From the NCBI GenBank assembly GCA_039028835.1, contig JBCCHK010000004.1:2497-66496 (forward strand): DNA of 64,000 bases, written 5' to 3'. How positions within the stretch are numbered: the first letter of the stretch is position 1; every line of letters begins with the position of its first letter. This document shows, one piece after another, positions 25,903-59,279 of the stretch. The notes under the pieces were generated by a model, which searched no databases, had not been told where the DNA came from, and was given only the letters and a program-made list of their open reading frames with translations. Made by a program: the position numbers and the translations under genes. Source of the DNA: Pseudomonadota bacterium. GTDB lineage: Bacteria; Pseudomonadota; Alphaproteobacteria; JBCCHK01.

Positions 25903-26058
25903 GCAAACCTATGAAACGGGATGGATGATGATGCCCAGATGACGATACCCCAGCGGCGTGGGAGAATGATCTATCATATTTTTGACATCATGGGACATAA
26001 GGAGTGTATACAGCCAAAAGAGAACATAGAAAAGTCTTAAAAAAGAATGCGCAAAGGT

Positions 26059-32150: not shown

Positions 32151-32363
32151 GAAAAACCTCATCAGGCAGGACAGTGACGAAAAGACTATCACTAAAAAGA
32201 TAGGGAAAGAAGGCAAGGCATCCCGGATATCAAGACAAGATCATAGCAAAATCAGTGAAAAGAAAAATTAATGGCTAAAGCAAAACCATTCTCAGGTCTT
32301 GTTTGCTTGCACGAGGCGGGCGTTTCGTTATCATCGGTTTTTTCATGATCGTGGTTTTCGTTT

Positions 32364-43840: not shown

Positions 43841-44324
43841 TCTCGGCAAAATTGCAGGGTTTATGGCGCGCATCCAGTTGCAAGCGGAGGATCTGATCCC
43901 ACGCATCACGGCAAGCCCCCGGTGAGCCTGGCAGGCAAAACACCAAGCCATCCCCGATCCAACCGGCAAAACAACGGGACTGAATGGCGGACGTGCCAAT
44001 CTGTTCATAGCTGATCCGGCGAAACAGTTCGCCAAAGCCGTCGATGGGGCACGTTAGCAGCGGCATCACTGCCTGGACCGTGACATCGCGCGGACGAAAG
44101 CCGGTGCCACCGGTGGTGAGGATCACCTGGGTTCCTTCAGCCAGCCAGGGGCGGATACAGCCTTGGATCGCGACAATCTCATCGGGCACGATGGCCTTAT
44201 GGCTAAGGATGTGACCGCTTTCGTGCACCTGCTCTTGCAAAAAACCGCCGGATCGGTCGGTGCGCGGGGTGCGGGTATCGCTGATCGTCAGCACCCCGAT
44301 CTTGAGGGGGATGAACATGGTCAC
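43812..44324 (-). CDS. moaB: Molybdenum cofactor biosynthesis protein B (MoaB/MogA family)
   Basis: Motifs IGVLTISDTR and TTGGTGFRPRDVT. Length is about 170 aa. Confidence 0.85.
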   Translation of the reverse strand: MTMFIPLKIGVLTISDTRTPRTDRSGGFLQEQVHESGHILSHKAIVPDEIVAIQGCIRPWLAEGTQVILTTGGTGFRPRDVTVQAVMPLLTCPIDGFGELFRRISYEQIGTSAIQSRCFAGWIGDGLVFCLPGSPGACRDAWDQILRLQLDARHKPCNFAEIIATKPSPD

Positions 44325-46030
44325 GGCAGGTCCTCAGGGGACAGGACGGGCCATCGATTGGAGGCCAGAGTCTCCAATGACGGTGTCGGCAGTTCTAAAA
44401 GATGACGATAAATCCAGTAATTCGCCATGATCCGTTCGATATACTGGCGGGTTTGAATCCATGGGATGCTGTGGATCGCCAGCAAGGGATCGGATTGATC
44501 GGCACTGATCTCTTGGTACTTGGCGCGGTGTTTTTTGACTTGGGTGGGCCCCGCATTATAAGAGGCAATCGTATAGATCAGGTCCCCCTCTTCGGCCACC
44601 AGGATCGACTTGAAGTAGGCCTTACCAAGCTCGACGTTGACATTGGGATCGAGCAGGATGCGCCGCTGGGCGGTGGTGCGATAACGATCACCGGTGACCG
44701 CCTTGGCGGCGATGGGGCGGACTTGCATGAGGCCGTAGGCTTGGCGATTGCTGACCGCATCGGGGCGAAAACGGGACTCTTGGCGGATGATGGCGTGAAT
44801 CAGGGCACTGCTGACCGGGTGCTGGGCATGCCAGGGCCCCATGGGATACAAGGCTGCGGCGTAGGAGGTGTTCTCCTCATCGGTGACGATACTGCCGACA
44901 AACAAGGCCGCCCGGGGCAGCAAGAAGGTGTAGGCGAACACAGCGATATCGCGCAAGAGCTCGGGGTCATCCCGGTGAGCTTGTGCGAGGTACATGAGCT
45001 CGAGCTCGGCGCGGTCCATGCGCCCGACCTGGACAAGTCCTAAGGCGCGCGCACCAGCGGGGTGATCGGTGATGGTGCGCATGATGCCCTGGTTTAGGGG
45101 CGGCATGGCAAGGGACCAGACCTCCAGATCACCACCCAGCGCGAGCGAAAGCTGGCCATAAAAGGTTAAGGGAAACTGGGCGGCGCGAAGCAGCCAGGTG
45201 CGTAGTTTTTCCGGTTGTTCCGCGCGCAGCCAAGCTCGACCAGCCCAAAAGGCGGTGCGCGCCTTCGTCCAAGCATCGCCACACTCGGCGTCGTAGGCTT
45301 GCTCAAAATGCACGGCGGCAACGCCGTAGCTTTGCATGCGCCAGGCGACCAATCCGGCGATCCACCGTGCGGTGGGATCGTTATGGGTGGCAAGGGCGTC
45401 CGCGGCGGTATCGCCAGCCTTATCAAACAGCCCCTCGATGTAATAGCTTTGCGCAACCAGCCCCATGAGGTAGGCATATTCGTCCGCCCGTAGGCGATTG
45501 CGTTGGCTCGCCAGGTTCTGGCGGGTGGCGGTCGGGCGGGAGCGGCTGAGGTCGCGCCGGGTTTGGCGAGTGAGGTTGCGCACGACGCTGTTGCGGTCAG
45601 GCGGCTCGCAGTCGATGGCGCCAAAGTTCTCCCCTTGGCCGCTGGCGACGGGTAACTCGATGGTGGGTCGCGGCAAGCTCGGCTGATTGCCGCGGCGGCG
45701 ATTGCCCAGTCGCTGGATTTGCCGGGAGCCAGGCTGGTCAGCATAGAGCGCAAGCCAGTCGCGGAGTTCTTGATAGGTCGATCGCCAGCCGGTCGGGTGC
45801 ATGTAGCGTTGAAACAGGACATGGCCCATGAGCCGCCGGTCCTCCAGCTGGTTGATGAGGATATCGGCGTCCTGCCAGTGGGCGGCTTCTTGGATTTCAA
45901 AAATGCGTCGATAGCGTTCGGCGTCGTTGGGTTCGATCAGCCACGGGTTGGCGATTCCCCAAAGGTTTTGCGCCTGCGCGGCGGGACTCGTTGCGATCAA
46001 CCCCGCGATAATAAGCAGGGCGAGTCTCAT
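44321..46030 (-). CDS. Soluble lytic murein transglycosylase (Slt70-like)
   Basis: Signal peptide [20 protein letters not shown], a superhelical N-terminal domain, and catalytic motifs IIRQESRFRPDAVS, GLMQV and ASYNAGP. Confidence 0.82.
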   Translation of the reverse strand: MRLALLIIAGLIATSPAAQAQNLWGIANPWLIEPNDAERYRRIFEIQEAAHWQDADILINQLEDRRLMGHVLFQRYMHPTGWRSTYQELRDWLALYADQPGSRQIQRLGNRRRGNQPSLPRPTIELPVASGQGENFGAIDCEPPDRNSVVRNLTRQTRRDLSRSRPTATRQNLASQRNRLRADEYAYLMGLVAQSYYIEGLFDKAGDTAADALATHNDPTARWIAGLVAWRMQSYGVAAVHFEQAYDAECGDAWTKARTAFWAGRAWLRAEQPEKLRTWLLRAAQFPLTFYGQLSLALGGDLEVWSLAMPPLNQGIMRTITDHPAGARALGLVQVGRMDRAELELMYLAQAHRDDPELLRDIAVFAYTFLLPRAALFVGSIVTDEENTSYAAALYPMGPWHAQHPVSSALIHAIIRQESRFRPDAVSNRQAYGLMQVRPIAAKAVTGDRYRTTAQRRILLDPNVNVELGKAYFKSILVAEEGDLIYTIASYNAGPTQVKKHRAKYQEISADQSDPLLAIHSIPWIQTRQYIERIMANYWIYRHLLELPTPSLETLASNRWPVLSPEDLP

Positions 46031-48022: not shown

Positions 48023-48634
48023 TTACTTTCGCACGCCGAAGGTATTGGGGGCGGTGCGGGTAAAGACCGTTCCCTTGCGCACGTAGGTTGTGAGCGATGC
48101 CACGATGGAGCGACGTTGTTTTGCCGTATCGGGCTTTCTAAGGCTCTTGATAATATCAGAGATATGCATGGGGCCTCGGTTTTTCTTGATCGCCTCATAG
48201 ATATCGTTCATCGTCGAGCCACTCCGCAGGCCTGACGCGGTCTTTACCGCCGCTTTTTTTCTTGCTGCGGTTTTCCGGGTGGTTTTTTTGGCCGCGGCTT
48301 TCCGGGTAGTTTTTTTGGCCGTAGTTTTCCCGGTAGTTTTTTTCGCGGCGGTTTTCCGAGTGGTTTTTTTGGCCGCGGTTTTCCCGGTGGTTTTTTTTGC
48401 GGCGGTTTTCCGAGTGGTTTTTTTGGCCGCAGTTTTCCCGGTGGTTTTTTTCACGGCGGTTTTCCGGGTGGTTTTTTTCGCGGCGGTTTTGGTTGCCTTT
48501 TTCGGCTTGGAAAGTGTTTTGAGCACTTTGGTGAGTTCTTTCTTCGCCGCCTGTTGACGTTTTACCAGGCGGTTAAGAGCTTTGATGGCGTCATCACATT
48601 TTTCAATAGACGCCTTAATTTGACGAGCGGACAT
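48023..48634 (-). CDS. Lysine-rich histone-H1-like repeat protein with a C-terminal winged-helix-like domain
   Basis: About ten repeats of AAKKTT(R/G)KT in the centre, an N-terminal coiled segment, and a C-terminal globular segment MNDIYEAIKKNRGPMHISDIIKSL... Confidence 0.7.
   Translation of the reverse strand: MSARQIKASIEKCDDAIKALNRLVKRQQAAKKELTKVLKTLSKPKKATKTAAKKTTRKTAVKKTTGKTAAKKTTRKTAAKKTTGKTAAKKTTRKTAAKKTTGKTTAKKTTRKAAAKKTTRKTAARKKAAVKTASGLRSGSTMNDIYEAIKKNRGPMHISDIIKSLRKPDTAKQRRSIVASLTTYVRKGTVFTRTAPNTFGVRK
48254..48499. repeat. Coding tandem repeat with a 24-bp unit (48-bp super-unit alternating R/G), about 10 copies
   Basis: On the plus strand the DNA reads GGTTTTTTTGGCCGCGGTTTTCCSGGT-like units. 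It translates to KTAAKKTT(R/G). Confidence 0.85.
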
Positions 48635-50383: not shown

Positions 50384-50605
50384 AAAAGGCCCGTAGATGA
50401 GTTAACCCGAACGTGCCACAGCCCCCCCGTCTTCGCAAGGTAGCCTGCGGGCAGTCTGTCGGCAGGGCGATGATGCAAGGCATGGATAGCGCGGCTTTGT
50501 GCCCCGTGATACACTCGCATGAGCATACCCTTGCGGCGACGTGCAACGCCGCAAAGGCATCGCCAAGACGCCACACCGCAAACACCATATCAAGGGCGTT
50601 ACGCA

Positions 50606-50671
50606 AAGACGTCACAGCAAGACGTCACCCCAAGGCGTCATAGCAAGACAGCACACTCAAGACAGCAAGCA
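50606..50671 (+). promoter_or_regulatory. Five direct repeats with a 13-14 bp period (AAGACGTCACAGC, AAGACGTCACCCC, AAGGCGTCATAGC, AAGACAGCACACTC, AAGACAGCAAGC) ending 15 bp before the OmpA-like gene start
   Basis: Read directly, with unit starts at 50606, 50619, 50632, 50645 and 50659. The first two units carry the GACGTC palindrome. Confidence 0.55.
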
Positions 50672-50685
50672 AGAAAGCAAGGTTT

Positions 50686-51798
50686 ATGAGGTACGATATC
50701 TTGAACACACCCCCCAATCCAAACCCGGCAGGGCAAGGCTGGAGAGGGTTCGTTTTCGCCACCTTTATGGTCCTGATTACGCCGTCCATCATGGCGCAGG
50801 AGATCATCACCCCCCGCAGTCCCGCGCCCGCCCGGGCTCCTTTTGAGATTGACTACACCGCCTTGCGCGATGTGGCCTTAAGCGCAGGTCCCGGCTCGGT
50901 GATCCGGCCTGAGGGCGATGTCTTGACCCGCACAGAGGCCAGTGCCCCTGCCGCCAATGCTTCTGCGGCTTCTGCGGCCACGACGGTGCGCCCGCCTGCG
51001 CCGCAGACCCAGCAAGCCCCGCAAACAGCCCGGGTAGCTCCTGCCGTGACGCCTGCGGCAACGCCCGAGCCGGAGCTGACCGGTGGGGCTGATGTATCAG
51101 GCACGACGACGGACACGACGATGGACACAGTGACGGACACAGTGATGGATATGGGTGAAGAACCGCCGCGCCAACCGGCCCCATCGGCAACAGTGGCCAC
51201 AACGACCGCGCCAGCAGAGCCGACTGAGCCCGCCGCGCCGCCCGAGCCGCTTGTCACCGAGGTCGCACGGGAGCCAAGCCAAGAGGCTGAACAAGAGATC
51301 GAACCAATCGCCGAACAAATGGCCGAACAAGAGACCGAGCAAGACTCGGCTCGGGCCCTGGTGAATGACATTGTGCGAGCCGAACAAACCCCGCCAGACC
51401 AGACAGCATCCCCTTCCGCCCAGCTCGCGCGGGCCCCTGCACCGTCAGCGCCATCGGTGGATGTCATCAAGACCGCCCGGGGCGATGACCTGTATCGCAT
51501 CGTCTTCCCGCAAGACAGTGCCGAGCTGGATCAAAACAGCGTCGATCTGCTCACTCATATTGCCCGCGAACTCACCGCTGCACCGGACGTACGGGCAACG
51601 ATTAACGCCTATGCCGCCCTTTCCAGTGACAGCCAGCTGGCGCGCGTATCGCGACGCCTGTCTTTAACCCGGGCGCTGGAGGTGCGCACCCGGCTGATCG
51701 AATCCGGTGTGGGTGCCGCGCAGATCAGCCTGCGTGCCTTCACCGTCCCCACAGATGATGAGATTGGGGCCCGGGTCGATGTTACGATCCCGCAGTAA
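50686..51798 (+). CDS. OmpA-family peptidoglycan-binding protein with a signal peptide and a long Pro/Ala/Thr/Glu-rich linker
   Basis: Signal sequence GFVFATFMVLITPSIMAQE, and a C-terminal OmpA_C-like domain (FPQDSAELDQNSVDLL...SRRLSLTRALEVRTRLIESGV). Confidence 0.75.
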   Translation: MRYDILNTPPNPNPAGQGWRGFVFATFMVLITPSIMAQEIITPRSPAPARAPFEIDYTALRDVALSAGPGSVIRPEGDVLTRTEASAPAANASAASAATTVRPPAPQTQQAPQTARVAPAVTPAATPEPELTGGADVSGTTTDTTMDTVTDTVMDMGEEPPRQPAPSATVATTTAPAEPTEPAAPPEPLVTEVAREPSQEAEQEIEPIAEQMAEQETEQDSARALVNDIVRAEQTPPDQTASPSAQLARAPAPSAPSVDVIKTARGDDLYRIVFPQDSAELDQNSVDLLTHIARELTAAPDVRATINAYAALSSDSQLARVSRRLSLTRALEVRTRLIESGVGAAQISLRAFTVPTDDEIGARVDVTIPQ

Positions 51799-51824
51799 CC
51801 CGATGTCCTAAGGGAGCGTTTGCC

Positions 51825-52925
51825 GTGGACACCTTTTCCAGCGCAAAATATCTCACCCGGATGTCTCTGTTTATCGCCGGCGTCGTGGTGGTATTGGTGG
51901 TGCTCGCGCCGCGTTTTCTTCCCGTTTTGCAGGCCAATTTTTGGTTTAACGGCTTTATCCTCGCGCTCAGCCTGTTTGGCATCGTCCACGCCTTTGCCAA
52001 GGTCTCGAGTTTGCACCGGGAAGGCCGATGGCTTGATAAGGCCCTTTCGCCTTCCTCGGTGCCCGAGCGCACCAAGCCCGACATCCTTCATCCCATCGCC
52101 ATCCAGCTGCAAACCCATGGTCGCATTCAAGACGGCGCTGGGGCGGCAGACCGAGTTGCGCAGCGGCTCGATGAATCCCGCCAGGTCGCCCGCTATCTGG
52201 TTGGTTTGTTGGTGTTTTTAGGCTTGCTCGGCACCTTTTGGGGGTTGTTGCGAACGATTTTTGCCGTCGGCGGCACCATCGAAGCCCTCACCATTCAAAG
52301 CGATGTCGCCCAAGTCTTTGCCGAGCTCCGGGACGGCTTGCAAGCCCCCTTATCGGGGATGGGGATCGCCTTTAGTTCATCCTTATTTGGTCTGGCAGGG
52401 TCCCTGGTGGTGGGCTTTTTAGAATTGCAGGTCAACCAGGCCTGTAACGCCTTTCTTGCCCATATAGAAGACCGCACCCAAAGCACCTCTTCATCGACAA
52501 CCTTTGCCTCCCAAGCGCCGCCGTCCTCCCCGGCCATGGACGCGGCCCTCATGACCCAGGCCGCTGAGGTGGCCCATAACCTGGCGCAATCGCTGGCCAC
52601 GCAACAAAAACAAAGTGCGAGCTGGCAACAGCACATGGCCGGCCTGGCGCGCGAACTGGCCCAGCTTAATCAGCACCTTAAAGCCAACGGTGAGGCTCTC
52701 CAGGAAATGAGTGTCGCACAAAGCGAATTACGCGCAGGCCTGGCACGCGCATTAAAAACAGCCACCCCTGCGTCCTCCTCTAGCCAGGGTGTAGAAAACC
52801 TTGCAGAACAATTAGACAAACTCATCATCGAGATCAGCCGAGGCCGTCAACAAACCGTTAACGATCTGCGGAGCGAGTTGCGTATTTTGGGTCGCGCCTT
52901 GACTCTGCCGCATAACAAAAAATAG
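51825..52925 (+). CDS. MotA/TolQ/ExbB-family proton-channel protein with a C-terminal tail of about 150 aa (Ser-rich and coiled coil); GTG start
   Basis: Four predicted TM helices and the family motif PLSGMGIAFSSSLFGLAGSLVVGFLELQV. AGGGAG lies about 8 nt upstream of the GTG. Confidence 0.7.
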   Translation: MDTFSSAKYLTRMSLFIAGVVVVLVVLAPRFLPVLQANFWFNGFILALSLFGIVHAFAKVSSLHREGRWLDKALSPSSVPERTKPDILHPIAIQLQTHGRIQDGAGAADRVAQRLDESRQVARYLVGLLVFLGLLGTFWGLLRTIFAVGGTIEALTIQSDVAQVFAELRDGLQAPLSGMGIAFSSSLFGLAGSLVVGFLELQVNQACNAFLAHIEDRTQSTSSSTTFASQAPPSSPAMDAALMTQAAEVAHNLAQSLATQQKQSASWQQHMAGLARELAQLNQHLKANGEALQEMSVAQSELRAGLARALKTATPASSSSQGVENLAEQLDKLIIEISRGRQQTVNDLRSELRILGRALTLPHNKK

Positions 52926-52927
52926 TC

Positions 52928-54262
52928 ATGCCGATGCGGCGTTACGTTTCAACCCAACGCATCACCAACGACTCGATCTGGCCTGGCTTTGTCGATGCGC
53001 TGTCGACGCTGTTAATGGTCATCATCTTTATTTTGATGATTTTTGCGGTTGCTCAATTTTTTCTCGCGCAAACTGTCACAGGCCGTGATGAGGTGGTCGC
53101 GCGGTTGATGGATGATATCGAGCAGTTGGAGCAAAAAATCACCCTTGCAGGCGTCGAACAAGACCAACTAGAGCGTAATCTCTCAAGTGCGCAAGAACGC
53201 ATCGATGAGGTCGTCGGCCAGCGCGACCTTTTATCCGATCGTCTGCAGAGTCTAGAAATCGACCTGCGCGGATCGTCCGCGCAGGTCAGCCAGTTAGAAA
53301 ATCAAACCACTCATTTAAGCGCGCAGGTCCAGGAACAACGCCAAGCTCGTGAGACCTTGCGAGCGCAGCTGCAAGCGCGCACCCAAGACCTGGAACAAGA
53401 AAATCAAACCATGCGCGAAGGGGCGCAAGCCGATGCCGCGCAACTGGCAAGCCTGCGCGAGGCTTTGGGAGCGAGCCAAAAACGGCTAGAAAATCTCTGG
53501 CGGGATCGGCGAGCCAACGAGCAAGTTTTTCGCCAGGATATCCAAGACCTAGAACATAGGGTCACCGAACTGACCACCCTGCTGGCGCGACGAAACCTTT
53601 CCCTAGACGAACGGCGTCGGGCACTCTTGCGCACCCGAGCCGAAAGCCGTTCCTTACAAGATAGTTTAGACGATGTGGCAGGGCAGTTGTTACAAGTGCA
53701 GCAAGCTCTGGAGATGAGCGAGGCCGCTGTCTCATCTCGCGATATAGAAATCACCAACCTCACCTCGCGGATTAACCAAGGACTCATACGTAAGGTCGAA
53801 GAATTAAACCGCTACCGCTCAGAGTTTTTTGGCCGCGTGCGTGATGTGATCGGCGCCCGTGATGATATTCAAATCGTCGGTGATCGGTTTGTCCTCTCAG
53901 CCGAGGTGCTGTTTCCTTCAGGCTCGGCGCGACTCACGCCCGAGGGCACGGTGCGGCTTGAGGAAATTGCGCAAACCGTTTTGAGGGTCGCCCAGACCCT
54001 GCCCGATGATGTGCCCTGGGTCTTGCGGGTGGATGGTCATACTGACCGGGTGCCGATCAACACGCCGCGCTACCCCAGCAATTGGGAACTCTCCACCAGC
54101 CGCGCGACCTCGGTGGTGCGCTTTTTAATCTCCCAAGGATTTCCGGCGGACCGTCTGGCCGCCGCTGGCTTTGCCGATCAAAAACCCATCGATCCGGCGG
54201 ATACGCCCCAGGCCTATAGCCTTAATCGGCGCATCGAGTTGCGCATCGACCAAGGTCAATAA
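52928..54262 (+). CDS. MotB-like protein: N-terminal TM helix with a conserved Asp, a coiled coil of about 250 aa, and a C-terminal OmpA/MotB peptidoglycan-binding domain
   Basis: N-terminal WPGFVDALSTLLMVIIFILMIF, a heptad-rich Gln/Leu/Arg/Glu region, and the C-terminal pattern FPSGSARL...VDGHTDRVP...SNWELSTSRATSVVRFL...NRRIELRI. It starts 3 nt after the MotA-like stop. Confidence 0.8.
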   Translation: MPMRRYVSTQRITNDSIWPGFVDALSTLLMVIIFILMIFAVAQFFLAQTVTGRDEVVARLMDDIEQLEQKITLAGVEQDQLERNLSSAQERIDEVVGQRDLLSDRLQSLEIDLRGSSAQVSQLENQTTHLSAQVQEQRQARETLRAQLQARTQDLEQENQTMREGAQADAAQLASLREALGASQKRLENLWRDRRANEQVFRQDIQDLEHRVTELTTLLARRNLSLDERRRALLRTRAESRSLQDSLDDVAGQLLQVQQALEMSEAAVSSRDIEITNLTSRINQGLIRKVEELNRYRSEFFGRVRDVIGARDDIQIVGDRFVLSAEVLFPSGSARLTPEGTVRLEEIAQTVLRVAQTLPDDVPWVLRVDGHTDRVPINTPRYPSNWELSTSRATSVVRFLISQGFPADRLAAAGFADQKPIDPADTPQAYSLNRRIELRIDQGQ

Positions 54263-54280: not shown

Positions 54281-54916
54281 CTATAACAGCGAGCCATCCG
54301 GGCCGGTGATTCGGATGGGGAGTTTATCATCGAAAATCGGGTCGATCGCGCGTGAGGGTAACGTCTGGCCTATCAGGGCCGCGTCATTTTTTGCGCGGTT
54401 GGCAGCCAGTTGTTCTGCGGTGACCTGCAGACCCACGACAATGGCATGGGACTGCACGATCAACACGGGATCGACGATGCCCATGTCGATCTGTGCCGCT
54501 TGGGTAATGGTCAGGCGCCCGCGCCCAAGCTCTGGGGCGCCCTCGATGGGCAGGACGCTCTTGGCGATGATCCTATCGTTGTTATCGATGATCCCGATGA
54601 AGACCGCCCCTGCCACCGTATCGCCAGTAAAGGCCGGGCTTACGTTGAAGATTACCGGCAACACAAAGCTAATCGTCAATTCATTATTTTTTGCGTAAGT
54701 GCATTGACCGCGATAAGCCCCCAAACGGGCTTGGTAGAGGACCTCGCCCTCGTCGCTCACAACGTCCATGGTTTGGGTCCCCTGGACTTGCGCGATCGGC
54801 AGGCAGCGATAGGTAATCTCGTTTTGGGGTTCTTGGGAGCTCGTGCAACTGGTAAACCCCAACATCACCCCCAGCAACAAGGCATAGATGAACAAGATAG
54901 GAAAGTTATGGGTCAT
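54281..54916 (-). CDS. Hypothetical lipoprotein; start trimmed to MTHNFPILFIY
   Basis: Signal plus lipobox-like LLLGVMLGFTSC. The mature part looks beta-rich, and I recognise no domain. Confidence 0.45.
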   Translation of the reverse strand: MTHNFPILFIYALLLGVMLGFTSCTSSQEPQNEITYRCLPIAQVQGTQTMDVVSDEGEVLYQARLGAYRGQCTYAKNNELTISFVLPVIFNVSPAFTGDTVAGAVFIGIIDNNDRIIAKSVLPIEGAPELGRGRLTITQAAQIDMGIVDPVLIVQSHAIVVGLQVTAEQLAANRAKNDAALIGQTLPSRAIDPIFDDKLPIRITGPDGSLL

Positions 54917-55057
54917 TATCGATCCGCTATCGGTTGGTAAGTAGGGGGCCGTCATCCTTTGGTCATGGCGTGGTGATCCTAACATAAAGGGCATCGTTTA
55001 CATATCGCAAGCCGAGTTCTATCATCGGGGGATGATCTTTTTTAATCCCGGCGTTGT

Positions 55058-56035
55058 ATGACTCTGCCTTTGTTGACCGTTTTGCTGGCCGACCCGCGCG
55101 GTTTTTGCGCTGGCGTGAGTCGTGCGATTAGGATCGTCGAGCGTGCCCTGGAGATTTACGGCGCACCGATCTACGTCCGTCATGAGATTGTCCACAACCG
55201 CCATGTGGTGGATCGTCTGGCCGCGTTGGGGGCGGTTTTTGTCCATGAGTTAGATGAGATCCCCCCTGATTCGGTGGTGATCTTCTCCGCCCACGGGGTG
55301 CCCAAGTCCGTGCCTGAACAGGCCAAGGCGCGCGCGTTGATCGTGCTGGATGCCACGTGTCCCCTGGTCAGCAAAGTCCACGTCGAGGCCATGGGGTACG
55401 ATAAAAAAGATATCCACGTTGTCTTGATCGGCCATGCCGGTCATCCCGAGGTGGAGGGCACCATGGGCCAGGTACCGGACGGGTCTATGACCTTGGTGGA
55501 GTCCTTAATCGATGTGGCGCGGCTCACCTTTTCGCCCGACCAGCCGCTCGCCTACGTCACCCAAACGACCCTATCGGTGGATGACACCCAGGTGATTATC
55601 GATGCGCTGCGTGTGCGCTATCCGCACATTAAGGGGCCGAGCAAGCAAGACATTTGTTATGCCACCACCAACCGCCAGGCGGCGGTGAAGACCATGGCCC
55701 CGCGCTGTGATGGGTTCGTGGTGATCGGGGCCTACAACTCGTCTAATTCCATGCGCCTGGTGGAGGTCGCGAAAACCGCCGGATGTGCGAACGCCCAACT
55801 CATTACCGAGCCCGCCCAGCTCACCCAAGCGTGGCTTTCTGGCGTTACGACTTTGGGCGTGACAGCGGGCGCGTCAGCGCCAGAGGTGTTGGTGCAACGT
55901 TTGCTGGCCCGTCTACGGAACTGGCGGACGGTGCGGGTGCAGGATGTTCAGGTGGCATCTGAGGACGTAGATTTCAAGATTCCCGCCAGTTTGCGCGAGC
56001 CCCCCACACCGGTGGCGATAAGCTCGAACGGCTGA
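55058..56035 (+). CDS. ispH: 4-hydroxy-3-methylbut-2-enyl diphosphate reductase IspH (LytB)
   Basis: Motifs ADPRGFCAGV, HEIVHN, DATCPLVSKVH and SSNSMRL. Confidence 0.95.
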   Translation: MTLPLLTVLLADPRGFCAGVSRAIRIVERALEIYGAPIYVRHEIVHNRHVVDRLAALGAVFVHELDEIPPDSVVIFSAHGVPKSVPEQAKARALIVLDATCPLVSKVHVEAMGYDKKDIHVVLIGHAGHPEVEGTMGQVPDGSMTLVESLIDVARLTFSPDQPLAYVTQTTLSVDDTQVIIDALRVRYPHIKGPSKQDICYATTNRQAAVKTMAPRCDGFVVIGAYNSSNSMRLVEVAKTAGCANAQLITEPAQLTQAWLSGVTTLGVTAGASAPEVLVQRLLARLRNWRTVRVQDVQVASEDVDFKIPASLREPPTPVAISSNG

Positions 56036-57288
56036 GCGACGGATATCGCCGTGGGTGTTTCCTGCCACGCCAGGCAGGCCACCTGATGACAGCGAGTGCA
56101 GGACTCCCGCCAGTTTAGATACGGCGTCTGGCACGCGCTGCACACCCAAGCAGGCGGCAGAGGCGCCAAGCCTGCCTGGTTACGGTAATTCGAGGCCTTC
56201 TCGGGGTTGCCCTGGGCGTCTTCCACCTCAGCGAGCAAACGTAAGATCTGTTGATCGGCCCGCTTGGCAAGCGCGAGACGTAGGTGGCCGCGCGCCGCAG
56301 GGGCCATCTCGGCGGCCAGCTCGGCCTCGGCCAGCAGGACTTTGCCAGGCACGTAGGTCGGCAACAGGGTATGCAGATGCTCGAACGCCCGCACCCGCGC
56401 AAGGGCTTGGCCTACGGGTTGCGCCTCTTGCTTTTCTGGCTGGCGGCTGTGGGCATAGGCGCGGGCAATGTCCGGGTGCGGCGCAAGGATATACTTTTTT
56501 TCTAAAAACCGTTGGGCTTTTTTGGCCTGCTTGTTGTCCACGAGCAGACTCGCCAAGCAGGCAATGGCCGGAGGAAAGGTCGGGGTTTGCGCGAGGGCAG
56601 CGCGGGCACTTTGCAGCGCGGCGGGCAGATCGTCGTTCTTGGCCAGATGCCAAGCCCGGCCAATGGCCACGGTGGCCACGACCTGGGGCCCTTCAGGCAA
56701 GAGTTTTACGGCATCGATGGCGACTTTGTAGGCCTCATCCCAACGCGCGGTATCGAGCAGCAACCGCAGGCGGGTGCGCGCCAGCCAGGGGCTACGCTGA
56801 TCGAGTTGCGCGGCCTCATCGCACAAGGACAGGGCGCGTTCGGTGGCGCTGTCCTGCACGGCAAGCTCGATCAGGCCTCGCAGGCCCATAAAGCGCGTTT
56901 CTTCCCACTGACACAGGTCTTCAAAGGTTTTGATCGCCTCGGTTCCTTCGGCCTTTTGTGCTTGGATGAGGGCTGCGAGCTTTGGATCGGCCTTGCGCCG
57001 GGTCGGCAGAGCCGTCTGCCCCGCAGACAGGAGGGTTAAATCGCGCAAAAAGGTCTGTTGTTGGTGGCGCTGACGGCGTGCTTGCCGGGCCAGGCGGGCC
57101 CGATACCACAGCCCCGTGAGCCAACTAAGCACCAGGGCAAGTACCAAAACAATGAGGGCCAGGACCAGAGCACTGGTTTCGATCACAAAGCCAAACCAGG
57201 CCATGGTGATCTGCCCAGGATGAAAAGACAGCCACACGGCCACCAGGCCAATCACAGCGATTTTAATCAGGGTCCAGGGACTCATCAT
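55948..57288 (-). CDS. HemY-like protein (HemY_N membrane domain plus TPR, with a C-terminal zinc ribbon)
   Basis: N-terminal double TM segment (IKIAVIGLVAVWLSF...ALIVLVLALVLSWL), TPR-like helices, and CSACQTPYLNWRESCTRCH. It overlaps the 3' end of ispH by 88 bp. Confidence 0.78.
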   Translation of the reverse strand: MMSPWTLIKIAVIGLVAVWLSFHPGQITMAWFGFVIETSALVLALIVLVLALVLSWLTGLWYRARLARQARRQRHQQQTFLRDLTLLSAGQTALPTRRKADPKLAALIQAQKAEGTEAIKTFEDLCQWEETRFMGLRGLIELAVQDSATERALSLCDEAAQLDQRSPWLARTRLRLLLDTARWDEAYKVAIDAVKLLPEGPQVVATVAIGRAWHLAKNDDLPAALQSARAALAQTPTFPPAIACLASLLVDNKQAKKAQRFLEKKYILAPHPDIARAYAHSRQPEKQEAQPVGQALARVRAFEHLHTLLPTYVPGKVLLAEAELAAEMAPAARGHLRLALAKRADQQILRLLAEVEDAQGNPEKASNYRNQAGLAPLPPAWVCSACQTPYLNWRESCTRCHQVACLAWQETPTAISVAQPFELIATGVGGSRKLAGILKSTSSDAT

Positions 57289-57297
57289 GCATCTTGG

Positions 57298-58500
57298 CTA
57301 TGGTGCCGCCAGGGCCGTGAGGGCCACCAGCGCAGCAAGGGTGCGGTGCGCGTTCTCAAGCCAGGTGACGTTGGTCGTCGCTAAGGCCGGATCGTCTGTG
57401 ACCATGGTGATAGCCTTAGCAAGCGCACCATCAACAAGGGCTTGGGCGGCTTGCTGATAGAGCCCTTGCGGCGCGTCTTGCCGGCGGATAGTAATCAGAT
57501 TGGCGAGCTCGCCGCGCCAGCCCCCCGGCGGGGGCGGTTCGGCAAGGCTGGTCGCAAGCGTGGCCACTGGCGTGATCGGCCGCGGCGGCAGGGTGATATC
57601 GCGCATGGCCGCCAGCGGACGGAGCGCGTCGATCAAAGGGTCTAAGTCTGGCGCAGGGGTAGCGGTGAGCAGCAAAGCGCGGGTGTGACTGGCGGCGATT
57701 TGAATGAGCAGGGACGATGGATCTTGTGTGGTATTTTGGGTTTCTTCATTTTGGGCGTCTTCTTGAGCGCGCTCTTGTTGCAGGTTTTCTTGGTTGGCGA
57801 TTCGATCCTCAAGACTGGCCAGGTTGTCTTCCATCGCCGCGAGCGTGCCCGCCAGGGTGTCTTGCATGAGCAGGGCAAGACGCTCTTGGTCAAGGGCGGC
57901 CGCGGCTTGGGTGCTGGGCTCTATCGCGGTGGTTGCCGTGCGGGTGCGCAGGTCTTGTAGCTGCGCGGTGAGGTCGCGGATTGTCTGGCTATTTTGCTCT
58001 TGGTATTGCTCTTGTGTGGTGCTGTTTTGCGCGAGGCGCGCGGTCAGGCGTTCGTCTAGCTCCGTAAGGTCGCCCGCCAGATCATTCAGCTCGTCATTCA
58101 AGTCATCCAGGTGATCGTTGAGGTCGGCCAAACGTTGGGGCAGGGCCTCATGTTCAGCGGCATGGGTGGCGGCATGGGTGGCTGTCTCGTTCGTGTTTTG
58201 CCCAGAAAAGAAGGCTACCACCGGCGCGACTCCTGGGATATCGGGCAAGCGGGCGATACCGATGGCACCGGCGATGGCCAGCCCGAGCCCTACCACCAGA
58301 CCGATCAGCAAAAGGCGTAGGGCGGATTTGATCCGAGAGGGTTTCTTGTCCGAGGAAGATGCCCCTGTAGGGGTTTTTCTGGCGGTTTTTTTGCCTGTGG
58401 TTGCGGGGGCCGCAGGCTTGGTCTCAGACGTCTCAGGGACAGAAGGTGATGAGTCGGTCACGGCGTTTTTCATAGGTCGAGGCGGGTGTGATGTCATCAT
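57298..58500 (-). CDS. Alphaproteobacterial Mic60 (mitofilin)-like / HemX-position membrane protein
   Basis: Architecture of an N-terminal TM helix, a long acidic coiled coil, and a conserved C-terminal domain. It sits between hemD and hemY-like, the position reported for alphaMic60. Confidence 0.55.
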   Translation of the reverse strand: MMTSHPPRPMKNAVTDSSPSVPETSETKPAAPATTGKKTARKTPTGASSSDKKPSRIKSALRLLLIGLVVGLGLAIAGAIGIARLPDIPGVAPVVAFFSGQNTNETATHAATHAAEHEALPQRLADLNDHLDDLNDELNDLAGDLTELDERLTARLAQNSTTQEQYQEQNSQTIRDLTAQLQDLRTRTATTAIEPSTQAAAALDQERLALLMQDTLAGTLAAMEDNLASLEDRIANQENLQQERAQEDAQNEETQNTTQDPSSLLIQIAASHTRALLLTATPAPDLDPLIDALRPLAAMRDITLPPRPITPVATLATSLAEPPPPGGWRGELANLITIRRQDAPQGLYQQAAQALVDGALAKAITMVTDDPALATTNVTWLENAHRTLAALVALTALAAP

Positions 58501-58556: not shown

Positions 58557-59279
58557 CTAAGATCCCACGCGATCGATTAATGCTAAGACAGCCTCGGCGG
58601 TCGGGTGTGTGGCCGCAAAGGTGTTATGAAAACCGACCTGTGTTGCGGCTTTGGCCACTGCATCAGAAAGACATAAAAGTGGCATGCTTAGGGCCCGTTC
58701 AGGCGCAAAGCGGGCAAAGGTATAGGCGCTTTGAATAGAAAATAGAAAAACGCCATCAATCTTACCGTGATTGAGTTTATACCACGCACGCATAGAAAAA
58801 GACTCAACCGGCCTGGCATCATAAAGATCAAGACCAGTCGCAGAAATCCCATGCGCCCCCAGAATATCGACCAGACCAGGGCCAGCGGCGCGATTGCGGA
58901 CATGCAAGAGCGGACCAGAATCAGGTTGCGCGATGATGAGTCTGGTAAGAGATGTGGCATCCCCACCATCAGCGGTGTGTATCGTCGTCCACCCTGCCTT
59001 ACGCGCCACCAGCGCGGTGCGCGTACCCACTGTAAAGGCAAGCCCGTCACCGACCTGCCCGCCAGCTTGCCGCCATAGGCGCGGGGCATTGGCACTGGTG
59101 AAAATAAAGCCGCGCCAAAAATTTTTGTCAGATTGAGCCAAGGCTTCACCCAATCCCGGCGGAGAGAGCAAAACAATCTCCAACACCGGGGCGATCACTG
59201 CGCGGTGGCCGCGGGCGCGAATCCGGCGAGCAAAGCGTTGCGCGTCGGCAATAGGGCGGGTGACGAGCCAAGTTCCCAT
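58557..59279 (-). CDS. hemD: Uroporphyrinogen-III synthase
   Basis: HemD-like length and pattern (LVTRP...A..FA..IRARGH, FTSANA, FLFSIQSA), in hem-cluster context. Confidence 0.75.
   Translation of the reverse strand: MGTWLVTRPIADAQRFARRIRARGHRAVIAPVLEIVLLSPPGLGEALAQSDKNFWRGFIFTSANAPRLWRQAGGQVGDGLAFTVGTRTALVARKAGWTTIHTADGGDATSLTRLIIAQPDSGPLLHVRNRAAGPGLVDILGAHGISATGLDLYDARPVESFSMRAWYKLNHGKIDGVFLFSIQSAYTFARFAPERALSMPLLCLSDAVAKAATQVGFHNTFAATHPTAEAVLALIDRVGS

What the first reader, a model, noticed from the sequence alone, without database searches (positions are those of the whole stretch)
50686..54262. Orphan stator-like module: OmpA-like protein, MotA/ExbB-like channel with a coiled-coil tail, and MotB-like protein with a ~250-aa coiled coil
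Three same-strand genes are tightly spaced, with gaps of 26 and 2 nt. Gene 2 has four TM helices and the MotA/TolQ/ExbB channel motif (GMGIAFSSSLFGLAGSLVVGF), followed by a cytoplasmic tail of about 150 aa that is Ser-rich and coiled coil. Gene 3 has the MotB-type TM helix with the conserved proton-carrying Asp (WPGFVDALSTLLMVIIF). It then has an unusually long heptad-rich segment (roughly aa 50-300) before a canonical OmpA/MotB peptidoglycan-binding domain. Gene 1 is a second peptidoglycan-binding OmpA-like protein with a long acidic low-complexity linker. Within the 64 kb there are no flagellar genes, no tolR/tolA/tolB/pal, no exbD/tonB, no gliding genes and no ZorC/ZorD-type genes. The neighbours are glyQ and ispH. 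Together this suggests an ion-driven 5:2-type motor tethered to peptidoglycan, with extended coiled coils on both sides of the membrane and an unknown output.
Basis: partly seen in the sequence, partly recalled or inferred. Interest (0 to 1): 0.75.

Follow-up and report, generated by a model that had tools for sequence, protein, structure and literature searches.

The report
Uncharacterised wall-anchored ion motor, Alphaproteobacteria
These three genes encode a non-flagellar relative of the flagellar, Ton/Tol and Zorya ion-driven motors; it is fixed to the cell wall by a very long rigid rod, it is conserved across many Alphaproteobacteria, databases mislabel it as flagellar MotA/MotB, and I found no study of what it drives.

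Summary
Three co-directional genes lie at 50686-51798, 51825-52925 and 52928-54262, with gaps of 26 and 2 nt, and they have the described domains.

- **Gene 2** is a four-TM A subunit. Its fold matches ExbB, ZorA and TolQ best. It carries a conserved helical cytoplasmic tail of about 130 aa.
- **Gene 3** is a MotB-type B subunit. It has an invariant TM Asp (D23), a proline-free coiled coil of about 260 aa, and a MotB/PomB-type peptidoglycan-binding domain.
- **Gene 1** is a secreted protein with an acidic Pro/Ala/Thr-rich linker and a degenerate OmpA-like domain.

The module is not unique to this genome. The gene 2/gene 3 pair defines a large family (947 clusters at 50% identity) found across Alphaproteobacteria. 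It was adjacent in 79 of 80 genomes and sits among housekeeping genes. It was absent from 72,556 plasmids and 2.9 million viral contigs. Gene 1 lies directly upstream in 44 of 80 loci.

It is neither a flagellar stator nor a Zorya system.

New here: the rod of the B subunit varies from about 20 to 80 nm across the family, and the variation comes in whole heptads at two independent sites. This indicates a continuous rigid rod that is too long to stand upright in the periplasm.

I found no paper on the family. The output and function remain unknown.

The parts
50686..51798 (+). Gene 1: a secreted accessory protein of 370 aa with a C-terminal OmpA-like domain. It is a frequent but not universal third member of the module.
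   Evidence: ORF. Pfam OmpA scores 33.4 bits, above the cut-off of 27.2. A homologous gene lies directly upstream of the A-subunit gene in 44 of 80 related loci. Sources name relatives only 'OmpA family protein'.
50686..50799 (+). Gene 1 N-terminal signal peptide (aa 1-38; hydrophobic core FVFATFMVLITPSIMA, likely cleavage after IMA).
   Evidence: This is the only hydrophobic segment in the protein. Homologues carry an equivalent AxA-Q site. The cleavage site itself is inferred.
50839..50871 (+). Gene 1 short conserved motif just after the signal peptide (window FEIDYTALRDV; family consensus V.VDLSVLD.LG).
   Evidence: A motif search found it in 15 of 45 family members, several of which are truncated at contig ends. 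Its function is unknown. A role as a docking peptide is inference only.
50872..51465 (+). Gene 1 acidic, low-complexity Pro/Ala/Thr/Glu-rich linker.
   Evidence: Residues 41-260 have pI 4.1 and contain 33 P, 43 A, 28 T and 21 E. The linker length varies widely among homologues.
51496..51795 (+). Gene 1 degenerate OmpA-like domain (aa 271-370).
   Evidence: A family profile matches solved OmpA-like domains at E = 4.6e-8. The Arg of LSxxRA is invariant, but the Asp of (G)HTD is replaced by YA.G.
51825..52925 (+). Gene 2: the A subunit (366 aa) of a MotA/ExbB/TolQ/ZorA-type ion-driven motor.
   Evidence: An AlphaFold2 model gives Foldseek PDB hits to ExbB (E 3.5e-4, TM-score 0.54), type I ZorA (1.3e-3) and TolQ, with weaker hits to MotA/PomA. 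The PADLOC ZorA3 profile matches at E 5.8e-14 over aa 122-199. The protein aligns end to end with a family of 947 clusters at 50% identity.
52185..52424 (+). Gene 2 TM3-TM4 channel core (aa 121-200), including the invariant GLLGTFWGL (T137) and AFSSSLFGL (S184-186).
   Evidence: Invariant columns in alignment A1 and hydropathy. This is the only stretch matched by the ZorA and MotA_ExbB profiles.
52530..52904 (+). Gene 2 conserved cytoplasmic helical tail (aa 236-360; two helices, 236-312 and 320-360).
   Evidence: AlphaFold2 secondary structure and heptad periodicity. The sequence is conserved across the family. ZorA1 and ZorA2 profiles extend into it. In some relatives the module is tandemly duplicated two to five times.
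52928..54262 (+). Gene 3: the B subunit (444 aa), a member of NCBIfam PRK09039 'peptidoglycan-binding protein'.
   Evidence: NF006543 scores 369.4 bits against a cut-off of 305. The gene lies immediately downstream of the A gene in 79 of 80 loci. There is a 2-nt gap and no Shine-Dalgarno sequence, which suggests translational coupling.
52979..53065 (+). Gene 3 TM helix (aa 18-46) with the invariant WPGFVD motif. The Asp23 codon is at 52994-52996.
   Evidence: W18, P19, G20, V22 and D23 are invariant in 20 homologues. It is the single hydrophobic segment.
53066..53851 (+). Gene 3 periplasmic coiled-coil rod (aa 47-308, about 36-39 nm if straight). It comprises an indel-free proximal segment, variable region 1, a conserved central island (aa 141-180), variable region 2 and an indel-free distal segment.
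   Evidence: There is no proline in 262 residues and the heptad score lies 9 sd above shuffles. AlphaFold2 predicts helices 19-166 and 170-308. Family-wide length variation is heptad-quantised.
53852..54259 (+). Gene 3 MotB-type peptidoglycan-binding domain (aa 309-444).
   Evidence: Pfam OmpA E 6.7e-16. The top Foldseek hits are the periplasmic domains of MotS, PomB and H. pylori MotB (E 5e-11, about 159 aligned columns). DGHTD and NRRIE are retained.

Best explanation
Genes 2 and 3 encode the A and B subunits of a non-flagellar, ion-driven (probably proton-driven) rotary motor of the MotAB/ExbBD/TolQR/ZorAB superfamily. It belongs to a distinct, vertically inherited family that is widespread in Alphaproteobacteria.

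**Shown here**
- Gene 2 has the A-subunit fold, four TM segments and invariant channel residues (T137, S184-186).
- Gene 3 has one TM helix with an invariant Asp (D23).
- A continuous, heptad-phased coiled-coil rod follows the TM helix, and then a MotB-type peptidoglycan-binding domain.
- The two genes are tightly coupled and co-inherited.

**Inferred by homology**
- Five A subunits surround a B dimer.
- Protonation and deprotonation of D23 drives the A pentamer to rotate around the B dimer.
- The B dimer is held still because its parallel two-stranded rod ends in a dimeric peptidoglycan-binding domain fixed to the cell wall.

**Inferred from geometry**
- The rod is about 36-39 nm here and about 20-80 nm across the family, but the distance from inner membrane to wall is only about 9 nm. 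The rod therefore cannot stand upright.
- The indel-free proximal part (about 9 nm) plausibly reaches the wall.
- The variable part would then run along the wall or obliquely, anchoring the motor at a lateral distance. It would act as a rigid tether or torsion bar.

**The tail**
The five conserved cytoplasmic tails of the A subunits probably bundle as in ZorA. They would form the rotating or signalling output toward an unidentified cytoplasmic or membrane partner.

**Gene 1**
It is a periplasmic accessory: a signal peptide, a short conserved docking-like motif, a disordered acidic linker and a degenerate OmpA-like domain. It probably adds a second link to the wall or to the rod.

**Physiological role**
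This is the least certain part. The context points to a housekeeping function in envelope mechanics or envelope surveillance, not to motility or phage defence.
For: **Fold and profiles**
- Foldseek on the gene 2 model gives ExbB, ZorA and TolQ as best hits, with MotA/PomA weaker.
- PADLOC ZorA profiles match at E 5.8e-14 to 4.6e-10, and ZorA1/ZorA2 alignments run into the tail.
- The B-subunit domain matches MotS, PomB and MotB periplasmic domains best.
- Gene 3 passes the curated cut-off of NCBIfam PRK09039.1-2.

**Conserved functional residues**
- D23 of the B subunit and T137 and S184-186 of the A subunit are invariant.

**Family and linkage**
- More than 7,900 homologues were found for each of gene 2 and gene 3.
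- There are 947 clusters at 50% identity with E <= 1e-30.
- The A and B genes are adjacent in 79 of 80 genomes.
- Gene 1 lies directly upstream in 44 of 80.

**Housekeeping, non-mobile context**
- Neighbours in Rhodospirillales-type loci are recognisable on reading the sequences as fba, thiE, efp and suhB. Neighbours in Rhodobacterales are a ClpA-like ATPase and an M23-type peptidase.
- Neighbours here are glyQ and ispH.
- No copy was found on 72,556 plasmids or in 2.9 million viral contigs.

**Continuous rod**
- The distance from the Asp to the RYRSEFF motif ranges from 159 to 579 aa. Of 59 distinct lengths, 33 fall in one class mod 7 (binomial p about 1e-13). The next classes are offset by +3 and +4. 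No other modulus shows enrichment.
- The heptad phase is constant over 200-230 residues in typical members.
- There are two independent variable regions, each quantised in heptads.

**Tail**
- It is conserved, helical and modular, with tandem duplications in some relatives.
Against: - Nothing was tested biochemically. The 5:2 stoichiometry, ion flow, rotation and peptidoglycan binding are all inferred from homology.
- Pfam MotA_ExbB is below threshold for gene 2 (15.4 against 22.9 bits).
- A family profile finds no solved A subunit by sequence alone. Assignment of the A subunit therefore rests on ZorA profiles and on a medium-confidence model (pLDDT 68.5).
- No partner or output is identified. 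The housekeeping-envelope role is based only on context.
- The window protein is a divergent member. Its closest relative is about 41% identical, and its rod has two stutters and an atypical length class.
- Whole-heptad indels would also be expected in any continuous coiled coil. They prove continuity, not a torque-bearing function.
Confidence: 0.65

Rival explanations
1. It is a minimal or ancestral Zorya-like anti-phage sensor. A ZorAB-type motor detects envelope perturbation through its wall anchor and signals through its tail to effectors encoded elsewhere.
For: - The best sequence-profile matches of gene 2 are to ZorA models: PADLOC ZorA3 at 5.8e-14 and ZorA1 at 4.6e-10, the latter extending into the tail. 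NCBIfam ZorA_2 and ZorA_4 are the only named hits for several family members.
- ZorB3 is the best PADLOC hit of gene 3.
- A C-terminal helical tail on the A subunit is the hallmark of ZorA (PMC11946911).
Against: - All NCBIfam ZorA hits are far below their cut-offs (23.5 against 100 bits).
- There are no ZorC, D, E, F or G genes, and no defence genes at all, next to the pair here or in the conserved neighbourhoods.
- Synteny with fba-thiE-efp-suhB is conserved across families, which indicates vertical inheritance and not a defence island.
- It is absent from all plasmids and viral contigs searched.
- The tail is about 130 aa, against about 500 aa in ZorA.
- The predicted cytoplasmic loop has no beta-hairpin, a feature described as unique to Zorya-type A subunits (PMC12505986).
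- ZorB has no long periplasmic rod.
Confidence: 0.1
2. It is a flagellar stator paralogue, as public annotation suggests ('flagellar motor protein MotA', 'chemotaxis protein MotB').
For: - NCBI and JGI give homologues these names.
- The domain of gene 3 is structurally closest to flagellar MotS, PomB and MotB periplasmic domains.
- Gene 2 has four TM segments, like MotA.
Against: - No curated flagellar MotA model matches gene 2 or four relatives, at E <= 0.1 for gene 2 and E <= 0.01 for the relatives.
- MotB, MotD and MotS models match gene 3 only through the OmpA domain and far below their cut-offs (106 against 283 bits).
- Pfam MotB_plug is not detected.
- The TM2-TM3 cytoplasmic loop is only about 60 aa with two short helices, so it lacks a MotA-type torque-generating interface.
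- No flagellar genes were found in the window, and none occur among the recurrent gene families of the 80 loci.
- A 20-80 nm rod between the TM helix and the wall-binding domain does not fit the fixed geometry of a stator docked on a basal body.
Confidence: 0.03
3. It is a Tol/Ton-like energiser. The motor uses the proton-motive force to pull on or extend a periplasmic transducer (the B rod, gene 1, or both) that acts on the wall or outer membrane during growth or division. TolR-, TolA- and Pal-like functions would be fused or redistributed.
For: - The closest folds for gene 2 are ExbB and TolQ.
- The TM3 motif GLLGTFWG resembles the ExbB/TolQ motif (from memory of those sequences, not tested).
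- The B subunit combines a TolR-like TM Asp, a TolA-like long helical segment and a Pal-like OmpA domain.
- Gene 1 has the TonB-like plan of an N-terminal element, a Pro-rich linker and a C-terminal binding domain.
- The context is housekeeping.
Against: - Gene 1 has a cleavable signal peptide, not a TM anchor that could insert into the motor.
- Gene 1 is missing from about 40% of loci, including all the Rhodobacterales loci recovered.
- There is no ExbD/TolR-type domain and no TonB/TolA gene nearby.
- The length of the gene 1 linker does not co-vary with rod length (rho 0.03).
- No outer-membrane partner is identified.
Confidence: 0.15
4. It is mainly a static structural tether between inner membrane and cell wall. 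The stator-like channel is vestigial or serves only to gate anchoring, and no mechanical work is done.
For: - The most elaborate and most variable part is the structural rod plus wall anchor.
- No output partner is evident.
Against: - The residues needed for ion translocation are invariant across a very large and old family: D23 in the B subunit, and the Thr and Ser residues of TM3 and TM4 in the A subunit. This argues for a working channel.
- The cytoplasmic tail is conserved in sequence, which a passive tether would not need.
Confidence: 0.07

Closest known systems
Zorya ZorA-ZorB (5:2 proton-driven motor of an anti-phage system; PMC11946911)
   Same: - The A subunit has a C-terminal cytoplasmic helical tail.
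- The B subunit has an N-terminal TM Asp and a peptidoglycan-binding domain and lacks a recognisable MotB plug.
- ZorA profiles give the best sequence matches to gene 2.
- Type I ZorA is among the best structural matches.
   Different: - There are no ZorC-G effectors, no defence-island or mobile context, and the family is vertically inherited among housekeeping genes.
- The tail is about 130 aa, against about 500 aa.
- Gene 2 has four predicted TM segments, against three reported for ZorA.
- No beta-hairpin is predicted in the cytoplasmic domain.
- The B subunit carries a 20-80 nm periplasmic coiled coil that ZorB lacks.
- Curated ZorA cut-offs are not reached.
Flagellar stators MotA-MotB, PomA-PomB and MotP-MotS
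   Same: - The A subunit has a four-TM topology.
- The B subunit has the invariant TM Asp.
- The peptidoglycan-binding domain is of the MotB, PomB or MotS type, including its N-terminal helix.
- The two genes are adjacent and coupled.
   Different: - No flagellar MotA model matches.
- The cytoplasmic loop is short and lacks a torque-generating interface.
- No MotB_plug is detected.
- A long rod of variable length replaces the short plug and linker.
- There is no linkage to flagellar genes.
ExbB-ExbD-TonB and TolQ-TolR-TolA-Pal
   Same: - They are the closest solved folds for the TM core of gene 2.
- They are housekeeping envelope systems.
- The idea is the same: an inner-membrane motor coupled to a long periplasmic element and an OmpA-type wall binder.
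   Different: - The B subunit is MotB-like and not ExbD/TolR-like.
- There is no TonB/TolA-type TM-anchored transducer.
- ExbB and TolQ have three TM segments and no C-terminal tail (from general knowledge of those families).
- Pfam MotA_ExbB is below threshold.
GldL-GldM / PorL-PorM (motor of type IX secretion and gliding)
   Same: It is a 5:2-type motor whose dimeric B-like subunit extends a long rigid periplasmic shaft (from general knowledge; reviewed in PMC9389320).
   Different: - The GldM shaft is built from globular domains, reaches outer-membrane components and has no wall-binding domain. Here the shaft is a two-stranded coiled coil that ends in a peptidoglycan anchor.
- There is no sequence relationship beyond a chance-level tail match (TIGR03513, E 0.007).
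NCBIfam PRK09039 'peptidoglycan-binding protein' (five sub-models, NF006542-NF006546)
   Same: Gene 3 is a member: NF006543 scores 369.4 bits against a cut-off of 305.
   Different: This is a database family with a generic name. A full-text search for 'PRK09039' found only two unrelated papers.

Membership tests
5:2 ion-driven motor superfamily (MotAB/ExbBD/TolQR/ZorAB/GldLM) | A subunit with the MotA/ExbB-type helical membrane fold | tested here: met
   The AlphaFold2 model of gene 2 gives Foldseek hits to ExbB (E 3.5e-4, TM-score 0.54 normalised to the target), ZorA, TolQ, MotA and PomA.
5:2 ion-driven motor superfamily (MotAB/ExbBD/TolQR/ZorAB/GldLM) | B subunit with a single N-terminal TM helix carrying a conserved Asp | tested here: met
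   D23 lies in the invariant WPGFVD motif in 20 of 20 homologues, and there is one hydrophobic segment.
5:2 ion-driven motor superfamily (MotAB/ExbBD/TolQR/ZorAB/GldLM) | Conserved polar (Thr/Ser) residues on the two channel-lining helices of the A subunit | tested here: met
   T137 (TM3) and S184-S186 (TM4) are invariant. They correspond to ZorA Thr147 and Ser184 as described in PMC11946911. This correspondence is by position in the motif, not by structural superposition.
5:2 ion-driven motor superfamily (MotAB/ExbBD/TolQR/ZorAB/GldLM) | A5B2 stoichiometry and ion-driven rotation | not testable with these tools
   No multimer prediction or experiment was available.
Flagellar stator MotA/MotB (PomAB, MotPS) | A subunit matches curated flagellar MotA models | tested here: not met
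   There was no NCBIfam MotA hit for gene 2 at E <= 0.1 or for four relatives at E <= 0.01. Pfam MotA_ExbB scores 15.4 bits, below the cut-off of 22.9.
Flagellar stator MotA/MotB (PomAB, MotPS) | Large TM2-TM3 cytoplasmic domain forming the torque-generating interface (4-5 helices) | tested here: not met
   The loop is about 60 aa with two short helices in the model. The criterion comes from PMC12505986.
Flagellar stator MotA/MotB (PomAB, MotPS) | MotB plug and short linker after the TM helix | tested here: not met
   No MotB_plug (PF13677) match appears among the Pfam hits at E <= 0.1. A coiled coil of about 260 aa follows the TM helix instead.
Flagellar stator MotA/MotB (PomAB, MotPS) | MotB-type (expanded) peptidoglycan-binding domain | tested here: met
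   The top Foldseek hits are the MotS, PomB and H. pylori MotB periplasmic domains at E 5e-11 to 1e-8.
Flagellar stator MotA/MotB (PomAB, MotPS) | Genomic or functional association with flagellar genes | tested here: not met
   None was found among 40 ORFs of at least 200 aa scanned in the 64-kb window, and none occur among the recurrent gene families of the 80 loci. The whole genome was not available.
Zorya ZorA/ZorB | Match to ZorA/ZorB profiles above curated thresholds | tested here: not met
   NCBIfam ZorA_2 scores 23.5 bits against a cut-off of 100, and ZorA_4 17.8 against 500. PADLOC ZorA3 matches at E 5.8e-14 but only over about 75 residues of a 780-position profile.
Zorya ZorA/ZorB | Long C-terminal cytoplasmic tail on the A subunit | tested here: inconclusive
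   A conserved helical tail is present, but it is about 130 aa and not about 500 aa. Some relatives carry two to five tandem tail modules.
Zorya ZorA/ZorB | Adjacent effector genes (ZorC/D, ZorE or ZorF/G) and a defence-island or mobile context | tested here: not met
   The neighbours are housekeeping genes here and in the related loci. No copy was found on plasmids or viral contigs.
ExbB-ExbD / TolQ-TolR | ExbD/TolR-type B subunit and an adjacent TonB or TolA gene | tested here: not met
   Gene 3 has an OmpA/MotB-type domain and no ExbD hit. No TonB or TolA gene is in the operon, and none occur among the recurrent gene families of the related loci.
ExbB-ExbD / TolQ-TolR | Pfam MotA_ExbB above the gathering score | tested here: not met
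   15.4 bits against 22.9.
NCBIfam PRK09039 peptidoglycan-binding protein (B subunit) | Whole-protein score above the curated cut-off | tested here: met
   NF006543 scores 369.4 bits against 305. The four sister sub-models score 262-304 bits, below their own cut-offs.
OmpA-like peptidoglycan-binding domain (gene 1) | Pfam OmpA above threshold and conserved Asp/Arg peptidoglycan-contact residues | tested here: inconclusive
   The Pfam score passes (33.4 against 27.2) and the profile matches solved OmpA-like domains (E 4.6e-8). The Arg of LSxxRA is invariant. The Asp of the HTD motif is not conserved in this subfamily.

The most novel reading that the evidence does not exclude
This would be a previously unrecognised class of housekeeping rotary motor, conserved across much of the Alphaproteobacteria and related to the lineage that gave rise to Zorya.

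Its axle would be a rigid, heptad-phased coiled-coil rod of 20-80 nm. The rod would lie in the periplasm and be pinned to the cell wall at a distance.

The motor would use the proton-motive force in one of two ways. It could apply torque or tension to the wall through the rod. Or it could hold itself on a stiff leash while its rotating cytoplasmic tail bundle drives or signals to an unknown partner. Either would be a new way of coupling membrane energy to envelope mechanics or envelope surveillance.
Probability: 0.3. Interest if true: 0.85.

Novelty: new variant of a known kind. Interest (0 to 1): 0.7.

Why it matters
Only a handful of outputs are known for 5:2 ion-driven motors: flagellar rotation, Ton import, Tol-Pal envelope maintenance, type IX secretion and gliding, myxobacterial gliding, and Zorya defence. 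Each new one has revealed a new way in which bacteria send membrane energy to another compartment.

This family is large, old and conserved in a major bacterial class. That class includes plant symbionts, pathogens, marine roseobacters and the relatives of mitochondria. Yet the family is annotated as 'flagellar MotA' and 'chemotaxis MotB', and I could find no paper on it.

Its architecture is distinctive. It combines a MotA-like topology, an ExbB/ZorA-like core, a ZorA-like short tail and a MotB-like wall anchor on a very long rod that changes length only in whole heptads.

That architecture gives clear experimental handles:
- the Asp mutant;
- insertions in the rod of heptad against non-heptad length;
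- truncations of the tail.

It would also allow the annotation to be corrected in thousands of genomes.

Tried and rejected
1. **Folded-back rod.** The AlphaFold2 monomer of gene 3 breaks the helix at aa 167-169, which suggested a hairpin. I rejected this for three reasons:
   - The two variable regions flanking the central island vary independently (Spearman 0.14, p 0.34). For example, one stays at 44 aa while the other ranges from 7 to 343 aa.
   - Each region is separately heptad-quantised.
   - Typical members keep a single heptad phase throughout.
2. **A Gly/Pro hinge at the rod midpoint.** No peak was found.
3. **Co-variation of the gene 1 linker length with rod length.** None was found (rho 0.03, n = 14).
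4. **Sequence-only link to solved structures.** A profile search of the A family against PDB sequences found only coiled-coil noise. Structure comparison was needed.
5. **The extra Pfam families listed for B homologues** (crescentin rod, among others). These are generic coiled-coil matches below threshold.
   - Zorya, stator and Tol/Ton reviews;
   - 'PRK09039';
   - 'MotA-like', 'MotB-like' and 'stator-like';
   - 'ZorAB-like';
   - MotA/TolQ/ExbB with Tn-seq in Alphaproteobacteria;
   - the Sinorhizobium Rgs/Tol-Pal interactome.

   None describes this family. RgsD is an unrelated fold. The Rhodospirillum rubrum curvature paper mentions MotB only in a reference.
7. **Plasmid and viral collections.** No relatives were found.
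8. **Identifying the organism.** GlyQ is at most 60% identical to any species representative recovered from the genome collection, and all the hits are Alphaproteobacteria. The source is a Logan assembly of run SRR22824298. No tRNA or Rfam element lies in the window.
9. **The downstream convergent 237-aa ORF (54281-54994).** It has no family match and no counterpart in any of the 80 loci. It is not part of the module.
10. **A search with the gene 1 domain profile.** It returned mostly short or partial 'OmpA family protein' entries and no informative name.

Full report
**What is in the sequence**

Three co-directional ORFs occupy 50686-51798 (gene 1, 370 aa), 51825-52925 (gene 2, 366 aa) and 52928-54262 (gene 3, 444 aa). 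Gene 2 starts at a GTG that lies 8 nt after a GGGAG Shine-Dalgarno sequence. Gene 3 starts 2 nt after the stop codon of gene 2 and has no Shine-Dalgarno sequence of its own, which suggests translational coupling. Upstream, glyQ is divergent. Downstream, an unrelated ORF is convergent, and ispH follows it. The scan found no convincing internal terminator.

**Gene 2, the A subunit**

Hydropathy shows four membrane segments at about aa 13-35, 39-63, 121-146 and 176-200. Sequence libraries barely recognise the protein:

- Pfam MotA_ExbB scores 15.4 bits, below its cut-off of 22.9.
- No NCBIfam flagellar MotA model matches. The best NCBIfam hits are ZorA sub-models, far below their cut-offs.
- PADLOC ZorA profiles match well over TM3-TM4 (ZorA3, E 5.8e-14). 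ZorA1 and ZorA2 profiles extend into the C-terminal tail.

An AlphaFold2 model built from 20 homologues has a mean pLDDT of 68.5, with 80-90 in the membrane helices. It is all-helical. Its best matches in the PDB are ExbB (E 3.5e-4, TM-score 0.54), type I ZorA and TolQ, followed more weakly by MotA and PomA. A sequence profile of the family finds none of these in the PDB, so the relationship is remote.

In the family alignment the motifs GLLGTFWGL (T137) and AFSSSLFGL (S184-186) are invariant. They lie on the two helices that line the ion path in ZorA (Thr147 and Ser184; PMC11946911).

After TM4 comes a short Ser/Thr-rich linker. Two conserved helices follow (236-312 and 320-360) with heptad periodicity. 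In some relatives this tail module is tandemly repeated two to five times, giving proteins of up to 614 aa.

**Gene 3, the B subunit**

Gene 3 passes the curated cut-off of NCBIfam PRK09039.1-2, 'peptidoglycan-binding protein' (369.4 against 305 bits). Its parts are:

- a basic cytoplasmic N-terminus of 17 aa;
- one TM helix carrying the invariant WPGFVD motif (D23);
- a proline-free helical stretch from aa 47 to 308 with strong heptad periodicity (0.62 against 0.43 +/- 0.02 in shuffles);
- an OmpA-type domain that keeps DGHTD and NRRIE.

The predicted domain is closest to the periplasmic domains of the flagellar stator proteins MotS, PomB and MotB, including their extra N-terminal helix (E 5e-11). 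No MotB plug is detected.

**The rod**

I measured the distance from the invariant Asp to the conserved RYRSEFF motif in 169 B subunits. It ranges from 159 to 579 residues.

- Of 59 distinct lengths, 33 fall into a single class modulo 7 (binomial p about 1e-13).
- The next most common classes are offset by +3 and +4, the classical stammer and stutter of coiled coils.
- No other modulus shows enrichment.
- In typical members a single heptad phase runs unbroken for 200-230 residues. The window protein has two +4 shifts, near aa 144 and 179. These explain its atypical length class.

An alignment of 112 rods shows five segments:

- an indel-free proximal segment (window aa 18-107);
- a first variable region;
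- a conserved island of about 39 aa (aa 141-180);
- a second variable region;
- an indel-free distal segment (aa 227-311).

The two variable regions change length independently (Spearman 0.14, p 0.34). Each changes in whole heptads: 9, 16, 23 ... 149 for the first and 7, 14, 42 ... 343 for the second. This rules out the hairpin hinted at by the monomer model and indicates one continuous coiled coil.

At about 0.15 nm per residue (general knowledge of coiled coils), the rod is about 36-39 nm here and about 20-80 nm across the family. [quoted passage not shown] The rod therefore cannot stand upright between membrane and wall. The indel-free proximal part beyond the membrane is about 60 residues, or about 9 nm.

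**Gene 1**

Gene 1 has:

- a signal peptide;
- a short motif just after it that recurs in relatives (V.VDLSVLD.LG; FEIDYTALRDV here);
- an acidic Pro/Ala/Thr/Glu-rich linker of variable length;
- a C-terminal OmpA-like domain.

The domain passes Pfam and matches solved OmpA-like domains. The Asp of the HTD motif is replaced in this subfamily, while the Arg of LSxxRA is invariant. Wall binding is therefore plausible but unproven.

**Distribution and context**

- Genes 2 and 3 each have more than 7,900 homologues. The closest to the window proteins are only about 41% identical over most of their length.
- An exhaustive profile search finds 947 clusters at 50% identity with E <= 1e-30, and the window protein aligns end to end with the profile.
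- In 80 genomes recovered with the A-subunit profile, the B gene lies immediately downstream in 79.
- These genomes include Rhodospirillales, Azospirillaceae, Kiloniellales, Kordiimonas, Acetobacteraceae, Rhodobacterales and Hyphomicrobiales-labelled MAGs.
- A gene 1 homologue lies directly upstream in 44 of 80, about 58% of the loci with enough upstream sequence. In the Rhodobacterales loci examined the upstream gene is an unrelated small cytoplasmic protein.

Recurrent neighbours are housekeeping genes. On reading the sequences, they are recognisable as aldolase, thiE, efp and suhB upstream, with an ABC transporter on the opposite strand. In Rhodobacterales the neighbours are a ClpA-like ATPase and an M23-type peptidase.

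No copy was found on 72,556 plasmids or in 2.9 million viral contigs. Forty ORFs of at least 200 aa scanned across the rest of the window all encode housekeeping functions or have no family match. None is a flagellar, Tol, Ton, gliding or Zor gene.

**Interpretation**

The well-supported reading is a distinct, vertically inherited family of non-flagellar 5:2-type ion-driven motors.

- Inferred by homology: five A subunits surround a B dimer, and proton passage through D23 turns the A ring around the B dimer. The B dimer is immobilised because its rod ends in a dimeric wall anchor.
- Inferred by analogy with ZorA: the five conserved tails form a rotating or signalling bundle in the cytoplasm.
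- Inferred from length alone: the rod acts as an oblique or wall-parallel tether or torsion bar.

Only context bears on the physiological role. Stable housekeeping synteny and the lack of mobility point to an envelope-related housekeeping function. They argue against phage defence.

Public names for relatives ('flagellar motor protein MotA', 'chemotaxis protein MotB') are not supported by any curated flagellar model or by the architecture.

**Comparison with known systems and novelty**

The family is a mosaic of a MotA-like four-TM topology, an ExbB/TolQ/ZorA-like core, a short ZorA-like tail and a MotB-type wall anchor. To these it adds a long rod with no counterpart in those systems.

It fails defining tests for flagellar stators, Zorya and Ton/Tol, as listed in the membership table. 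It meets the testable criteria for the 5:2 superfamily.

Ten full-text searches and six papers consulted yielded no description of it. A recent survey of MotAB relatives states that non-flagellar B subunits lack OmpA-type expanded wall-binding domains (PMC12505986). This family contradicts that statement.

I rate it a new variant of a known kind. The molecular identity is fairly secure. The output is unknown.

**Limits**

- There was no multimer prediction and no experiment.
- The whole genome was not available.
- Taxonomy rests on record titles.
- The A-subunit model is of medium confidence.
- Relatedness among sequences inflates raw counts. For that reason the heptad statistics use distinct lengths and not the raw protein count.

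Noticed in passing
window 50600-50680 (+), the glyQ / gene 1 divergent intergenic region: A run of short direct repeats lies just upstream of gene 1: AAGACGTCAC twice, 14 nt apart start to start, then AAGGCGTCAT, then AAGACAGCA twice. These may be regulator-binding sites. No sigma-70-like promoter was detected in this intergenic region.
   Followed up: no
window 48023-48634 (-): A 203-aa protein whose middle is a tandem lysine-rich repeat (KKTT[RG]KTAA, about 10 copies), flanked by unique N- and C-terminal parts. It looks like a histone H1- or AlgP-like DNA-binding tail. No Pfam family matched at E <= 1e-6.
   Followed up: no
window 57298-58500 (-), between a TPR (HemY-like) gene at 55948-57288 and hemD at 58557-59279: A 400-aa protein with an N-terminal TM segment and an acidic coiled-coil region, and no Pfam match. 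Its position next to hemD and a HemY-like gene is where alphaproteobacterial Mic60/mitofilin homologues have been reported. That is from memory and was not tested.
   Followed up: no
window 31218-32216 (-): A 332-aa TPR protein (TPR_16, TPR_6), the repeat types typical of CpoB/YbgF, the last gene of tol-pal clusters. It stands alone here, with no tol or pal genes beside it.
   Followed up: no
window 41865-46030: A small group of cell-wall genes lies 5-9 kb upstream of the module: a SPOR-domain protein (41865-42878), a GH3 NagZ-like hydrolase (42827-43840) and an SLT lytic transglycosylase (44321-46030). None of the three was looked for in the related loci.
   Followed up: no
window 20206-27495: Several genes have mitochondrial namesakes: COQ9 (20206-20886), ELM1 mitochondrial-fission-like (24808-25902) and an ABC1/UbiB kinase (26059-27495).
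   Followed up: no
whole window: The organism is a divergent alphaproteobacterium. GlyQ is at most 60% identical to any species representative recovered from the genome collection. Gene 2 is the sole member of its own 50%-identity cluster. The only other copy on record is a Logan assembly of run SRR22824298. There are no tRNA genes and no Rfam hits in 64 kb.
   Followed up: partly
window 54281-54994 (-): A convergent ORF ends 18 nt after gene 3. The 237-aa product (or 211 aa from an internal start) has a lipoprotein-like signal ending in GFTSC. It has no family match and no counterpart in any of the 80 related loci.
   Followed up: partly
related proteins P0241, P0276, P0278, P0324 (A-subunit relatives): Some A subunits carry two to five tandem copies of the tail module (485-614 aa). 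The cytoplasmic tail can therefore be lengthened modularly, which recalls the long ZorA tail.
   Followed up: partly
P0111: One close A-subunit relative comes from a eukaryotic protein set (EukProt g534.t1). It probably derives from a bacterial contaminant or symbiont.
   Followed up: no
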